Origin: Callorhinchus milii
Taxonomy: Eukaryota
DNA: 64,000 nt
Direction of reading: 5' to 3'
Assembly (NCBI RefSeq): GCF_018977255.1
Contig: NW_024704749.1
Location: forward strand, 12,772,001-12,836,000
The translations under genes and the position numbers were made by a program. Positions 43,862 through 49,800 of the stretch are shown one piece after another. How positions within the stretch are numbered: the first letter of the stretch is position 1; each line of letters opens with the position of its first letter. The notes beneath the pieces were generated by a model. That model was not told the DNA's origin. It made no database searches and worked only from the letters and a program-made list of their open reading frames with translations.

Positions 43862-46800
43862 TCAGTAACCTGCCGGCCGGCCCCCCTTGCGGGGGTCTGA
43901 CTGCGCCGTCCACATGGCTCCACTCCGCACAATGGCCTGGACCACTGCCCACGAGTCAGCATGAGCCACACAATGGTTCCTCCTCCGCAAACCGTCGCGT
44001 ACAGCCTGGAACACAAACCACATCAGCACTGAACCCGCGTCAGGGATAATCTCTAGCCCTGGTCCCAATTCTCTCCCTGCAGAGATAACATGCCACAGAC
44101 ACACAAACACATGAAAAGATACAATACTTTAAACAAGTTCAAGAATCACACTTTCCCTGTTTGCTGAGCTAAGAACGTCCAAAGCAAACACTCAGCGCTG
44201 AACAAGCTGATGATAGCTAATAGCTAATATTGACACATGGCATCAGCTTGTTTTCGTGTGACAAGCGAAGTAGCTTCCTCACCCAGGATCTGTCCCCTCA
44301 TTGGTTCTCTCACAGTATACCTGCCCAAGCCTGGCAGCCCCCAACCTGTAAACACCCGACAAACAATTACTGACAACAACAGCAGCTTGCACTTATATAG
44401 CATCCTCCATGCAGGGTAGCATCTCAAAGCGCTTAACAGTGGTGGAACGTGACTCCGAATTGGGGTGGGAGGTGCCTCCCGCATAGACAACCCCCTGCCT
44501 GGGCTTAAACTCTGGCAGAAATGTTGTCAATAAGACAGGCTGGATTCCATGGGGTATTTTCCAGCAAGTGTTGCATCGGGTTGGAGTTGAGATGGGTTGG
44601 GCTGAGTTAGCGTGTTGAGTTGATTTGGGGTTGAGTTGGGATGAGTTGGGTTGAGATGGGTAATGTCGCATTGCTTGTGTCATGTGTGATTGTGTTGTTA
44701 TTGCTGATATTGGGGAGTTGTTGAAGCCTGAGCGCTGCATGTGAGAGGCTGGACAAGTGCTTGTTGTTCTTGTGTTGAACACGGAGTGAAACAAAAGCCA
44801 TGAACAGTCACAGACTGGGCCTGATCCCCACTGATGTGATGCCCTGTAACAATGTGAGTTGTGCATCACTGGATTAGGGTGTGATATGCTCTCAGAGTCC
44901 CTCATTAATAGGATGTAATAATAATAATCCTTGCATTTGATATAGTGCCTTACCACGTCTTCGAGAAGTCTCCGCACCAAACTCCACACCCCGATTACTT
45001 CAGTCCTGGCCAAACTCCACTGGCTCCAGTCATAGAGCGGATCCACTTCAAGATCCTCACTCTAGTGTTTAAATCTATCCATTCCTTGCCCCCTCCCCAT
45101 TTCTTGAAACTTCCTCTCTCCCCACAGCAGTATCCGCTGCCTCCGCTCTACTGGGTCCGGCCTCCTCCGTGTCCCCGAATCCTCCACTCCACCATCGGTG
45201 ACCGTGCCTTCAGCCACTATACCCTGAAACTTTGGAACTCCCTCCCTCAACCCCTTCACCCCGCCACCCCTCACTTCTTCCCCATCTTCAGGTCCTGCCT
45301 GAAGACCTTCCTTTTCGAGCCTGCCTACGGTCACCTTCCCCCTCCCCTTGGTTCGGTCTTGGGCTCCGCCATTGTCAAGCTCTGAGACGCCGCCCAGCGT
45401 GGAGGGCGCTATATAAGTGCAAGTTGTTGTTGTCTTAAAGCGCTTCACAGAATATACTGTAAAGTGTACTGGCATGGCAGCCAATTTCCTAACAAATCAC
45501 ATTATAATGTGTTTTATCTGTGACCATCTCATCTTAGATTAGATGATGCTTTCACAGATTTCAGCTGCATTATGTGGTTTTAACTGGTTAGATTCCAGCA
45601 GTTATCCCAACACAGACTCTGGGCTGCCCCCCCTCATGCCTTGGATCCTGCCAACCTTCGCCTAATACTTTTCTGAATCATGTAAGCAGGATGCTTCCCT
45701 CCAGCGAGAGAGGACAATTCCATTCCAACAATCTATCTCTGGGATCTCCATGTGTGGTGGGATACATGGAAATCTCAGTTTGGGTTGGAGACTGTTAAGC
45801 AGGTGATGGTTTACTGCAAGTTGCTGACCAAACAAAATAACCATTTCACCGGGTCTAATGTCAGGTTCACACCTGCCCAGAAATCACCTGCTCAATATCC
45901 TCATCAAGTTCTGTCAGGTCGGGTAAGAGTTGATTGTGGAATCGAGGTTCGTTTACAGCTCTCCTCACTTCGTAACCAAACCACAGCACATTCATGATCA
46001 CCTGGAAACACAGGCACAGAGTGAGCGCGATTGAGAGATTAACATCTGCTCCCAATAACCCTCACCTCAATCTGACCCACCAGAGCTGTCGCTGAGATGA
46101 TCTTGGTTCCTCCTGAAGCTCCCACCACCATCTTCACCCTGTGCTGTTTGTCCAGTATAATGGCCGGGCACATGGAGGACAGCGGCCTTTTACCTGGTAA
46201 AGTAAAACACACAGTCACTGCACTTTACAGTATATTCTGTGAAGATGTGATAAGCGCCGATATCAAATGCAAGGATTATTATAAAGGGAGATGTTTCACA
46301 TGGTTTAACCTCGGGCTCAGGTACAATGGAGAGAAATACCAGAACTTCCAAACTCACCATCTCCCCAGCGAGAGCGGGTGGTGTGGGGGGGGGGGGCTCT
46401 CAAACCAGTTTATACTCAAAAGTCTATAATTTAGACTCTATACTCAGTTTATACCCTAAAGTTCATTATACGGTTGTGAGAGACTCAGACCCAGTCTCCA
46501 TCAATTAGCCTTTGGCCTCCCGAGGATATCCCCTTCCTGTGAGGAGGACAGCATGGACCTGATCATTTACAGGGGGAGGAGTGAGCCAAAACAATAGTCG
46601 CCTCCTTCCCCGCATCCCCTTCCCCCCTTCCCTGCCCCCTCCCCCACTTCCCCCCACCCCTCCCCCACTTCCCTCCCCCAACCCCCCTCCCCTCCCTACC
46701 CTGGTATAAGACCATCAATACAAGTAATACAATACAGACGGACGACAACACACCTGCTTGCAGTGAATTGGCTTCGGAAGCCGGGAGCTCACTGCCGATT

Positions 46801-49800
46801 ACGACTTGGGGGTAGGAGAAGTCGTCCATCTGATCGTTGAAGATGATGCCATTTCTCACAGATCTCACGTTCGACCCAAAACTGTGGATTAAACCCTCGC
46901 GCAAACGCACGGGTACGTGAGCAACAGTCGTGAGAAACAGTCATGAGAAACAGACGTGAGCAACAGACGTGAGCAGTGCAGGAGGAATAGATATAGTATT
47001 GACTGGGTGTTGCTCCACATTAAGCCACCGCTCGGGGTACAAGCCCAAACCCACCCCCATTCTGTGCTCAGTCTGGCCTGGCACAATTGCTGTGAGGTTT
47101 ATTGAAGGAGAAACCAGAAGCCAGATGTGATTTCTGCCTCTGATCAGTAGTCAATCCCTCCTCCCACACCCCACCCCCGAGAAGTGCCTGTGTGTGAAAG
47201 CCAGCATCAGGCTCAGCTGTGGCCCCCCCACTCCCCACCGTGCTCACAGCACCACATCCCAAACCCACGTCACTGCCTTCAGCAATGACAGGGCAGAGCC
47301 TGGAGCCACAACACACGCACACAGACACACACTCACACATACATACACACAAACAGACAGGCACACAGTCACATACACAGTCACACACATACAGTCACAT
47401 ACACTGTCACACACAGTCACACACATACACAGTCTCACACACACACAGTCACACACAGGGTAAAGGTAAAGGTCTCACTATTGGTTAATGGTGCTGGTGG
47501 CTGACACTGCGCCTCCGTCCTGTGCCACCACCGAGAGGTGAGAGGTGCCGTGACTGTCCGGTGTGTAGAATTCTGGCTCATAGTAACTCACTGGGTGTGT
47601 GGTGTTGTCCGTGATTTTATCCCAAAGCTGAGATGCAAAATATTCTGAGGTCATATTGGAGATGAGCTGTTAGAGCAAAACAGTGTCAAAATAGTGGGAA
47701 ACAGGGTGAGAATTGATATTAAAGGGGCGGCATTTAAAGGGCCAGCACACCTCGGTGATGTTAACGTATCGTGGGTCTCCCATCATACTCCTCTTTGCAA
47801 AGGCAAATTTAAAGGCTTCGACGATGCGATGGGATGTCAGGGCCCTCTTGGCCGCTGTGGAAACACTTTCCGGAGAGAAATGATAACCTAGGAACAGGGA
47901 GAGAAGTTTGCATTGGGGTGAAATTAGAAACAGCCACTGGGAGCTGCTGACACTGACCGGCTTCGCTCGGATGGGAACAAAGTGGGAAAACCATCACAAC
48001 TACACAATCAATAACATCTCGAGCTTGTCTGTTCTGTCACATGATCCAGTCGGCCGATGTTAGGAGGTTGTTGTCTCGCTGCCCTGAGTTGAGATCAAGG
48101 CTTGTGCTTCCCTTTACCTCGGCACAGCAGAGGGAAGAGGGACAGGCTGTCAGAGTGAACGCCAGGAAATGTTTTGTTATCCAGGAGTAATTAACAGCTG
48201 GAAATAGGTTATCAGGGAGGTGGATTGGGCTGATAAATCACTGCAAAAATCTACAATCCACCAAGAGACTCCTGACCATTAAACAAAACAGGTTGGACTG
48301 TTGGACTCCAATAATAGACGGCAATGATATGCGGTGGTTGAGAATGTCTGTTATGGTTTGTTACGCTGTGTAAATAGACAGACATGAGCTCACCCTTCAG
48401 GATGTTGAGGGTGAGGCCGAGCACAGGTCCCCCAGATGGAGCGTTGGGGGTGACCAGTGTGTAGTCACCCAGTGGGAAGCTGAGCAAATCCTCTGACAGC
48501 TCAGCCTTGTAGTCTGCCAGGTCTTTGAGGGTTATGATTCCACCTGGAACAGACAGAGATACCCATATCATTCCGTTACCAGGGGAATCCCCCATCACTC
48601 CCTGTTACCAGGGGAATCCCCCATCACTCCCTGTGTTAAACACTGAGCGGCTGTCACCCACCTGCCTTCCTGATATCGGTCACTATCTGCTGTGACAGGG
48701 ATCCGGTGTAGAAGGCATCAGGCCCTTCTTCGGCCAGAATCTGATAGGTTTCAGCTAATTTGGGGAATCTGATGATGTCATTTTCCTGGAGTATTTTCCC
48801 GTTGGAATTGCAAAACACCTCACTGTGGGGAGAACACGAGACAAACAGACAGACAGAAGGTTTGACTATTCTACCACCAGAGGTTTGGTTACAGTTTTTC
48901 TTCTGTGCTCCTGAGGCTGTCATTGACTTTCCGTTGTGGCTAATTGTCTGACCTCAGTCACTCTCTGACCTCAGTCACTCTCTGTCCTCAGTCACTGTCT
49001 GTCCTCAGTCACTCTCTGCACTTGTCCAGCTGCAGCCATTGAATGTGGTTCAGAGATAACGAAGAATCTTTCCACAGCAATTAGCGCAGCTCAGGATTGA
49101 ACAGTGACCCTACCAGAACAGCCAGTACAGTGCTCAGCCATCACCATTCACACACTCCAGCATTGATGGTTTCTTCTCAACGTATTCAAATACACCCTCA
49201 AGGGAACACAGTTCTCTCCCTAGAGGAAGGGCATCTCCATGAGTCGAGGATTCTTTCTCTGTCTGTGTGAGTGTCAGTGCTTTGGGACATCCTCCCGATG
49301 TAAAAGGCACCATATAAATGCAATCTGTTGTTCTTGTTGTGTGTGTGTCTCTTCCCACTTCTCTGACACTCTCTGTCTCTCTCTGTGCGCGAGGCTCTGC
49401 TACAGCTTTCCATGTCGTCATAAAGCTGCCGTGAGGGAATGAATCAGCCGCTGCCTTACCACAGCGCTGGGTCCCTCTCGATGTCTTGCTGATATTGCTT
49501 TATGGCTTTGCCAAGCGCTGCACTAACAGGGAATCCGTCTCTGGCCAGTTTGATGCTCGGCTCAAACAGCAATTTCCACGGTAACCGGCCATGTCTCTTG
49601 TGGGCGAGTTGGTATCCTCGTATTTCCCCGGGAACCGCGATGGACAGACCTCCTGTGGGGCAGCCACACTGTGTCATTACCCCCCCCCCACACAGTGTCA
49701 TTGCCCCCCCCCTACCCCCACCCCCACACAGTGTCATTACCACCAACCCCCCCACACACAGTGTCATTACCACCAACCCCCCCACACACAGTGTCATTAC

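What the first reader, a model, noticed from the sequence alone, without database searches (positions are those of the whole stretch)
46754..46881. GGT1 copy B has a rewritten lid loop and an E-to-Q change in the gamma-glutamyl pocket
Seen: copy A has [29 protein letters not shown], copy B has [29 protein letters not shown] at the same length and in frame. Known: this segment is the GGT lid loop, with a gating aromatic residue (human F433, E. coli Y444) and E420/D423 binding glutamate; E. coli has Q at the E420 position. Copy B has Ser where A has Phe. Inference: B is a neofunctionalised ectoenzyme with an altered hydrolysis/transpeptidation balance or substrate range, and this exon lies just outside the conversion tract.
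Basis: partly seen in the sequence, partly recalled or inferred. Interest (0 to 1): 0.7.

Follow-up and report, generated by a model that had tools for sequence, protein, structure and literature searches.

The report
Elephant-shark second GGT1 with rewritten lid
The elephant shark has two side-by-side copies of the glutathione-splitting enzyme gene GGT1 that are almost identical in the middle but sharply different in the exon shaping the active-site lid, which likely makes the second copy an enzyme with a more open pocket and different substrate preferences; related changes recur in duplicate copies in sharks and rays.

Summary
Observation confirmed. The window is Callorhinchus milii: GGT1 copy B (50976-43862, minus), copy A (41902-35433) and a GGT5-like gene. 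Both copies are intact 12-exon genes. B keeps T381, R107, N401, Y403, D423, S451/S452, G473/G474 and K562, but has E420Q, S426Y, F433S, F442S and P445A. Exons 4-8 are 98-100% identical between copies (conversion; one DNA run argues against an assembly collapse). Exon 9 is 64% identical (dS about 1.9) between converted exons 8 and 10. The change is B-specific: 8 of 25 conserved exon-9 columns changed in B and 0 in A, against 6 of 94 in other unconverted exons. Spliced B ends appear in two of three RNA-like runs. Q420 with an altered lid also occurs in tandem duplicates of catsharks, horn shark and a stingray, often with an aromatic residue at 426. Best reading: an old paralogue whose lid exon is likely held against conversion by selection, giving a more open, hydrolysis-leaning enzyme. 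No kinetics exist, lid dN/dS is about 0.8, and relaxed constraint remains a real rival. New variant of a known family.

The parts
46754..46881 (-). Copy B coding exon 9 (human 404-445): Q420, Y426, rewritten lid with S433, S442, A445
43862..50976 (-). GGT1 copy B, 12 coding exons (50976-50804, 50340-50213, 50072-49983, 49652-49460, 48822-48662, 48543-48394, 47887-47751, 47666-47479, 46881-46754, 46193-46081, 46001-45888, 44005-43862), 572 aa, N-terminal hydrophobic anchor, no stop or frameshift
   Evidence: 100% match of exon 9 to C. milii database proteins; Pfam PF01019 on P0142
35433..41902 (-). GGT1 copy A, 12 coding exons, 572 aa, canonical E420/S426/F433
   Evidence: A-type spliced contigs in runs X6 and X7
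37199..37326 (-). Copy A exon 9, canonical lid
47335..48837 (.). Conversion tract in B (exons 5-8 with introns), 98.1% to A 37551-39045; six substitutions between 47450 and 48837
   Evidence: one DNA contig of run X1 at depth 17.8 against 5-10 on B-unique contigs
49430..49827 (.). Second tract covering exon 4 (exon 100% identical to A), matching A 40048-40432
   Evidence: bridged from B-unique intron 4 by X1 record 7
46079..46202 (-). B exon 10, 90% to A (dS 0.29): an older or partial conversion on the other side of exon 9; carries PLSSM and the GG oxyanion hole
47479..47666 (-). B exon 8, identical to A, with the nucleophile T381, T399, N401
31931..32025 (+). Exon of the neighbouring GGT5-like gene (about 25843-34372) equivalent to exon 9: Q at 420 and 11 codons shorter, so no lid. 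The GGT5 label is from recalled synteny and motifs, not from a tree

Best explanation
Copy B is an intact, old tandem duplicate of GGT1 whose exon 9 stays divergent while the exons on both sides have been overwritten by gene conversion, likely because selection keeps a changed donor pocket and lid that are predicted to give a more open, hydrolysis-leaning gamma-glutamyl ectoenzyme. Shown: the gene structure, the retained catalytic set, the conversion landscape (dS 0.01 in exons 4-8, 1.9 in exon 9, 0.29 in exon 10), and B-specific change at conserved exon-9 sites. Inferred mechanism: B would still self-cleave at T381 and bind the gamma-glutamyl group through R107, S451/S452, N401 and D423. E420Q would turn one of two salt bridges to the donor's alpha-amino group into a neutral hydrogen bond. 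With Ser at 433 the lid could not close by aromatic stacking, while Y426 puts an aromatic ring at the lid's base. The predicted result is weaker alpha-amino binding, easier access for water and bulky or atypical donors (glutathione S-conjugates, GSSG), and a lower transpeptidation-to-hydrolysis ratio than copy A. The natural substrate is unknown.
For: Intact 12-exon gene with all human substrate-contact residues except E420. AlphaFold model pLDDT 92.7, lid blocks 82 and 73, GGT fold with rmsd 1.2 A to the human light chain. Divergence peak at exon 9 between converted exons 8 and 10, the pattern described for opsins under conversion (PMC3924837 passages). Relative rate in exon 9: B-unique 9-13 against A-unique 1-2 with each of 8 outgroups (p 0.002-0.04, not independent); 7 of 8 outgroups show no asymmetry in exons 2, 3, 10-12. 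8 of 25 against 6 of 94 conserved columns. Purifying selection in non-lid exon 9 (pN 0.16, pS 0.76). Exon 9 ranks 1st-3rd lowest in identity in 5 of 5 within-species E/Q pairs but 4th-11th in 12 of 12 E/E orthologue controls. An aromatic at 433 is kept in 77 of 78 E420 segments but 6 of 17 Q420 segments. Spliced B ends in runs X5 and X6. Bacterial data: lid insertion raises transpeptidation and excludes bulky donors, H. pylori Y433A lowers activity, and E442Q and Y444A are among changes that shift GGTs toward donors lacking an alpha-amino group (PMC8062742).
Against: No kinetic data. Lid dN/dS is about 0.76 (13 codons) and whole exon 9 about 0.17, so there is no dN/dS above 1. Exons 1-3 are just as unconverted (dS 1.5-2.0), and no similarity between A and B was found in introns 8 (3' part) and 9, so mechanical escape from conversion is possible. 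With Latimeria as outgroup B is also faster outside exon 9 (18 against 7, p=0.04). E. coli GGT is active with Q430. The bacterial E442Q and Y444A effects were measured on top of a D-to-N change that B lacks. 6 of 17 Q420 segments keep the lid aromatic, and the census is phylogenetically non-independent and partly seeded with a Q-form. The AlphaFold input (P0003) has a mis-annotated exon 7 and gives no ligand geometry.
Confidence: 0.55

Rival explanations
1. Relaxed constraint: B is kept for its expression pattern or dosage; exon 9 escaped conversion only because it is short and flanked by non-homologous introns, and the mobile lid drifted. Kinetics are similar to A or somewhat lower, with no new substrate.
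For: Lid dN/dS about 0.76, below 1. Exons 1-3 are equally unconverted. No A/B similarity found in the introns around exon 9. Q at 420 is tolerated in E. coli GGT and in 17 of 103 animal segments. The human lid is mobile and open in the ABBA-bound structure. B was seen in X5 and X6 but not X7, compatible with a different expression pattern.
Against: Exons 10 and 11 were partly converted with little intron homology, so short exons can be converted here. The excess of changes is concentrated in exon 9 rather than gene-wide. The same exon stands out in four other E/Q pairs, and Q420 comes with an aromatic at 426 in catsharks, horn shark and stingray as in B, against 2 of 80 E420 segments, both invertebrate.
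Confidence: 0.3
2. B is a weak or nearly dead enzyme (hypomorph or non-catalytic surface protein), kept in frame partly by conversion from A.
For: Several highly conserved residues are lost together (N431, F433, P437, F442, I443, P445). H. pylori Y433A loses much activity (PMC8062742 passage). Conversion keeps exons 4-8 intact whether or not B is needed.
Against: All catalytic and other donor-binding residues are intact, also in unconverted exons (R107, D423, K562). dN/dS about 0.15-0.2 in unconverted exons 2, 3, 10-12. High-confidence fold. Bacterial GGTs carry small residues at the 442 position (alignments).
Confidence: 0.1
3. Assembly artefact: the shared exons 4-8 were collapsed from A into B, so B is a chimaera.
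For: An N gap sits at the end of the tract in A (37387-37550). The X1 contig that enters the exon 5-8 tract from B-unique sequence overlaps it by only 30 letters, one short of the tool's bridging rule.
Against: In DNA run X1 the tract is one contig at about twice the depth of B-unique contigs, with A letters at 4 of the 6 differences; X1 record 7 bridges B-unique intron 4 into exon 4; in X5 one spliced contig covers exons 4-8 and ends at the exon 8 boundary, with separate B-type ends. Exon 9B itself is covered by an X1 contig with no other letters.
Confidence: 0.03

Closest known systems
Human GGT1 (glutathione hydrolase 1; PDB 4gg2, 4gdx, 6xpc; MEROPS T03, Pfam PF01019)
   Same: Fold (rmsd 1.2 A on the light chain), T381, T399, N401, Y403, D423, S451/S452, G473/G474, R107, H81/S82, K562; 16-residue spacing of the lid; position between SNRPD3 and a GGT5-like gene (synteny recalled).
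   Different: E420Q, S426Y, F433S, F442S, P445A and a rewritten lid; A80I and M83V next to H81; exists as a second tandem copy under conversion.
GGT5 (human; and the GGT5-like gene in this window)
   Same: The neighbouring GGT5-like gene has Q at 420 and no lid; B approaches that state in both features. Human GGT5 hydrolyses GSH and conjugates at 3% of GGT1's Vmax (PMC7949050 passage).
   Different: B is a GGT1 by sequence and tree, keeps Y403 and H81 (Pro and Gln in human GGT5), and keeps a full-length lid. Human GGT5 has E420.
E. coli GGT (Q430, Y444) and engineered bacterial GGT acylases
   Same: Gln at the 420 position; loss of the lid aromatic (Y444A) and E442Q occur in engineered variants with wider donor range (PMC8062742).
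   Different: E. coli keeps a gating Tyr; the engineered variants rely on D433N/D445N, and B keeps that Asp.
Elasmobranch tandem GGT1 Q-forms (Scyliorhinus P0017/P0123, Heterodontus P0022/P0143, Hemitrygon P0093, Hypanus P0027)
   Same: Q420; aromatic at 426 in 4 of these 6; altered or shortened lid; four of them have a canonical E420 copy on the same contig among the fetched proteins, and exon 9 is among their most divergent exons.
   Different: Lid sequences are unlike B's; most also change D422; over the non-tract exons each groups with its own lineage's E-form, and one Q clade is rejected (AU p about 1e-105).
Divergence islands under gene conversion (human red/green opsin exon 5)
   Same: One functional exon stays divergent between homogenised neighbours (PMC3924837 passages).
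   Different: For opsins the functional difference is measured; here it is only predicted, and exons 1-3 are also unconverted.

Membership tests
GGT / glutathione hydrolase (T03, PF01019) | PF01019 match and Ntn-hydrolase GGT fold | tested here: met
   PF01019 E=2.9e-173 on P0142; Foldseek probability 1.0 to E. coli, Bacillus and human GGT
GGT / glutathione hydrolase (T03, PF01019) | N-terminal nucleophile Thr of the light chain plus second Thr (T381, T399) | tested here: met
GGT / glutathione hydrolase (T03, PF01019) | Oxyanion Gly-Gly and PLSSM motif; Arg107 | tested here: met
GGT / glutathione hydrolase (T03, PF01019) | Autoprocessing and gamma-glutamyl hydrolysis/transfer | not testable with these tools
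   needs recombinant enzyme
Vertebrate GGT1 | Groups with chondrichthyan and bony-vertebrate GGT1 in a tree | tested here: met
   Within the chondrichthyan GGT1 group for tract and non-tract exons, sister to A at SH-aLRT 100 and 98; no GGT5 sequence was in the tree
Vertebrate GGT1 | N-terminal membrane anchor (type II ectoenzyme) | tested here: met
   Hydrophobic helix at residues 2-28; surface location itself not tested; the RefSeq models P0005/P0142 lack this exon
Vertebrate GGT1 | Canonical donor pocket and lid (E420, aromatic 433) | tested here: not met
   Q420 and S433; E420 in 113 of the 117 other homologues listed by the full-length search
GGT5 | Lid deletion, Pro at 403, Gln at 81 | tested here: not met
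   B keeps the full lid length, Y403 and H81 (human GGT5 residues)
Neofunctionalised duplicate under gene conversion | Conversion tracts with a divergence peak at a functional site | tested here: met
Neofunctionalised duplicate under gene conversion | Positive selection (dN/dS above 1) on the divergent site | tested here: inconclusive
   Pairwise lid dN 0.81 / dS 1.07 on 13 codons with dS near saturation; no orthologous DNA for a branch test
Neofunctionalised duplicate under gene conversion | Measured functional difference between copies | not testable with these tools
   no assay; none found in paper searches
Single ancient chondrichthyan Q420 paralogue | Q-forms form one clade on unconverted columns | tested here: inconclusive
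   Rejected on non-tract exons and on exons 2, 3, 9 (AU 1e-105, 4e-8); not rejected on exon 9 alone (p=0.052, 41 columns); horn-shark and catshark Q exons group at 94/96; stingray Q groups with stingray E at 95/95; B unplaced

The most novel reading that the evidence does not exclude
Cartilaginous fishes carry a second GGT1 isoenzyme defined almost entirely by one exon (Q420, aromatic at 426, remodelled lid). It has either survived since before chimaeras and sharks split while gene conversion repeatedly rewrote the rest of the gene, or arisen in parallel in chimaera, sharks and rays, and it acts on a class of gamma-glutamyl-type donors that canonical GGT1 handles poorly.
Probability: 0.3. Interest if true: 0.65.

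Novelty: new variant of a known kind. Interest (0 to 1): 0.42.

Why it matters
What the lid and E420 do in vertebrate GGT1, a clinical marker and drug target, is still argued from bacterial mutants and inhibitor structures. Copies A and B are a natural pair, identical over residues encoded by exons 4-8 and differing sharply in this exon, so an exon swap tests lid function directly. If the recurring Q420/aromatic-426 form has its own substrate, it adds an unrecognised branch of glutathione or conjugate metabolism in cartilaginous fishes and a clean vertebrate example of an enzyme exon held against gene conversion. If kinetics are the same, it is an ordinary tandem duplicate.

Tried and rejected
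Own-genome search: no genome is held for this window. Search for B-type exon 9 in other species: only 3 C. milii proteins among 6 candidates, and none B-like among 28 hits in the 50%-identity library; this is weak evidence, since other chimaeras may be unannotated or hidden in clusters. First AlphaFold run with 22 sequences gave pLDDT 55.9 and was discarded; the second used 90. Frameshift origin of the lid: an ungapped alignment scores nearly as well; a compensated one-base shift around codons 441-443 appears only with low gap costs, so it is not claimed. Derivation of B's exon from the GGT5-like neighbour: rejected, that exon is 33 nt shorter and unlike. Orthology of B with catshark Q-forms: grouped only at 75/65, 28/37 and 44/75 with long branches, and A+B as sisters was not rejected on exons 2, 3, 9 (p=0.31), so unresolved. 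A link between B's Trp near human 541 and P. nitroreducens W525 could not be tested because that alignment was not displayed. Expression: no listed holder is on record as RNA; I laid 4 of 24 listed runs. Exon 9B has no cover in X6 although B exons 1, 3, 11, 12 do, and none in X7; a hole in contigs proves nothing (an assembler may have dropped the rarer path). The exon 8-9B joint is not among the joints shown (485 were not shown), and X5 also holds intronic cover. Contig depths were not used to rank A and B. Census rows dropped: B's own records, two fragments, four toxin-labelled arthropod proteins and three that did not parse. Paper searches for a shark or chimaera GGT1 duplicate and for ggt1l2 listed nothing on it; only listings were seen, and subscription journals are largely missing. 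One recalled paper on the human structure was not held. Three look-ups in earlier findings returned nothing. No supplements were read.
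Full report
Observation. Six-frame translation finds both quoted segments on the minus strand. Exon mapping gives two intact GGT1 genes of 12 coding exons and 572 aa each, all introns GT-AG with matching phases: copy B at 50976-43862 and copy A at 41902-35433. B's exon 9 is exactly 46754-46881, 128 nt like A's. It matches three Callorhinchus milii database proteins at 100%, so the window is elephant shark. Alignment to the human light chain (4gg2_B, starting at T381) confirms the numbering: B has Q420, D423, Y426, S433, S442, A445; A has E, D, S, F, F, P; E. 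coli has Q at 420. A GGT5-like gene lies tail to tail on the plus strand (label from recall) with Q420 and an exon 11 codons shorter, so without a lid.

Conversion landscape. Nucleotide identity between copies is 100% in exons 4, 5, 7, 8, 98% in exon 6, 64% in exon 9, 90% in exon 10, 82% and 75% in exons 11-12, and 54-70% in exons 1-3. A 1.5 kb block including introns is 98.1% identical and stops in intron 8. Nei-Gojobori dS is 1.5-2.0 in exons 1-3, 0.01 in exons 4-8, 1.9 in exon 9, then 0.29, 0.61 and 0.97; the high values are near saturation and rough. The pair is therefore old and has been partly homogenised more than once, with exon 9 a peak between converted exons 8 and 10. In DNA run X1 the exon 5-8 block is a single contig at depth 17.8 against 5-10 for B-unique contigs, carrying A's letters at 4 of the 6 differences, and another contig bridges B-unique intron 4 into exon 4. 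The tool warns that depth is no copy number, and the entry into the exon 5-8 block overlaps by only 30 letters, but this argues against an assembly collapse.

Who changed. With each of 8 outgroups, exon 9 has 9-13 B-unique against 1-2 A-unique residues (p 0.002-0.04, not independent); exons 2, 3, 10-12 are symmetric for 7 of 8, Latimeria being the exception (18 against 7). At columns conserved in at least 90% of 27 vertebrate E420-type sequences, B differs at 8 of 25 in exon 9 and 6 of 94 in exons 2, 3, 10-12 (p=0.0017); A differs at 0 of 25. Exon 9 as a whole has dN/dS about 0.17, the non-lid part pN 0.16 against pS 0.76, and the 13 lid codons dN 0.81 / dS 1.07. B is under purifying selection, and its lid is either relaxed or positively selected; these data cannot tell which.

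Expression. No holder is on record as RNA, but three of the four runs laid show spliced joints across exons 4-8. B-specific splicing is inferred from record length and shared depth values: in X5 a 449-letter record at depth 8.72 covers exon 1 and the same depth appears in exon 3, 960 bases away; a 452-letter record at 7.84 covers exon 12 and the same depth appears in exon 11; X6 shows the same for exons 11-12 (400 letters, 23.4). X7 shows only A letters. So B ends are seen in 2 of 3 RNA-like runs, both of one study.

Relatives. Of the 117 other homologues listed by the full-length search (best 120 of 1881), 113 have E420 and 4 have Q420, all elasmobranch. Cluster look-ups show the catshark, horn-shark and Hemitrygon Q-forms as separate proteins on the same contig as a canonical copy. 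A search seeded with the catshark Q segment added a second horn-shark Q-form, a cyprinid and Mytilus Q-forms with short lids, aphid and wasp Q-forms with intact lids, and a further elasmobranch GGT class with Q420 and no lid aromatic. Among 103 distinct segments, an aromatic at 433 is kept by 77 of 78 with E420, 6 of 17 with Q420 and 8 of 8 with other residues (rows dropped are listed under Tried and rejected; the sample is neither independent nor unbiased, and four loops were parsed roughly). An aromatic at 426, as in B, occurs in 4 of 17 Q-forms, all chondrichthyan, and 2 of 80 E-forms, both invertebrate, among 105 segments. Exon 9 ranks among the three least identical exons in 5 of 5 within-species E/Q pairs and only 4th to 11th in 12 of 12 E/E orthologue controls. 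Trees put each Q-form with its own lineage's E-form over tract and non-tract exons, and one Q clade is rejected there. On exon 9 alone it is not rejected (p=0.052), horn-shark and catshark Q exons group (94/96), stingray Q stays with stingray E, and B is unplaced. On exons 2, 3 and 9, A and B are not sisters in the best tree, but their sisterhood is not rejected (p=0.31). Ancient retention and parallel origin both remain open.

Mechanism. A model from a 90-sequence alignment has pLDDT 92.7, lowest in the light chain over the lid (82, 73), and matches GGT structures; its input P0003 has a mis-annotated exon 7. B keeps T381, T399, N401, Y403, D423, S451/S452, G473/G474, R107, H81 and K562. In human GGT1 the donor's alpha-nitrogen makes salt bridges to D423 and E420 and a hydrogen bond to N401 (PMC7949050, passages); the 427-436 loop is open with ABBA and closes through F433 stacking on an aromatic ligand (PMC10340724, passages). 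In bacteria the lid selects donors by size and raises transpeptidation, H. pylori Y433A loses activity, and E442Q and Y444A add to acylase activity on top of a D-to-N change (PMC8062742, passages and section 13 part 1; lid gating also in bioRxiv 10.1101/2020.04.20.050500 and PMC4568574, passages). From this I infer an enzyme that still cleaves gamma-glutamyl bonds, holds the alpha-amino group less tightly, cannot close its lid by stacking, and leans toward hydrolysis and bulkier or atypical donors. None of this is measured. A divergence peak under conversion is a recognised sign of selection (PMC3924837, passages), but exons 1-3 also escaped and the introns around exon 9 show no A/B similarity, so drift is a real rival.

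Verdict. The feature is real and B-specific. It is a new variant of a well-known family. Searches of the paper library listed nothing on shark or chimaera GGT1 duplicates (listings only). Interest 0.42.

Noticed in passing
window 51613-51663 (minus), upstream of copy B: The RefSeq models of B (P0005, P0142) start in an upstream exon and splice straight to exon 2, skipping the membrane-anchor exon; an X5 contig that covers the anchor exon has 27 further letters 5' of it. An anchor-less splice form of B may exist.
   Followed up: no
window 31931-32025 (plus): The GGT5-like gene has Gln at the 420 position and no lid, whereas human GGT5 keeps Glu420.
   Followed up: partly
P0201, P0202, P0204, P0206: A further elasmobranch GGT class on other contigs, with Q420, A422, no lid aromatic, Arg at 403 and Ser-Ser in place of the second oxyanion Gly region; it falls outside the GGT1 group used here.
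   Followed up: no
copy A exon 10, window about 36800: Copy A has Pro at human 478 (usually Thr) where B has Ile; A also differs at three conserved columns of exon 2, so A is not fully canonical either.
   Followed up: no
window 48394-48543 (exon 6 of B) and A 38602-38751: The few A/B differences in the tract vary between runs: A-type transcripts in X6 and X7 carry the B letter at 48535, while DNA run X1 shows the A letter, suggesting shared polymorphism and ongoing conversion.
   Followed up: partly
window 62646-63191 (minus): An LSM-domain exon (PF01423) reading like SNRPD3, preceded by a 72-base tandem repeat (62852-63027); fits the recalled vertebrate gene order next to GGT1.
   Followed up: partly
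window 1811-2452 (minus): Exons of a mitochondrial-associated sphingomyelinase family gene (PF14724, E=3e-45), on the far side of the GGT5-like gene.
   Followed up: no
window 56378-57019 and 61321-61644 (minus): Two open frames between SNRPD3 and copy B without a Pfam match; possibly exons of another gene (LRRC75-like by recalled synteny, untested).
   Followed up: partly
window 11088-12001 and 26293-27220: An inverted pair of about 0.9 kb at 97-99.8% identity, 15 kb apart, made of SINE-like sequence with an N gap in one copy: a recent duplication or a local mis-assembly.
   Followed up: no
P0153, P0154, P0165, P0170 (Tachysurus catfish): Tandem catfish GGT1s with Ile or Asn at position 420 and an intact lid: another lineage varying this site after duplication.
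   Followed up: no
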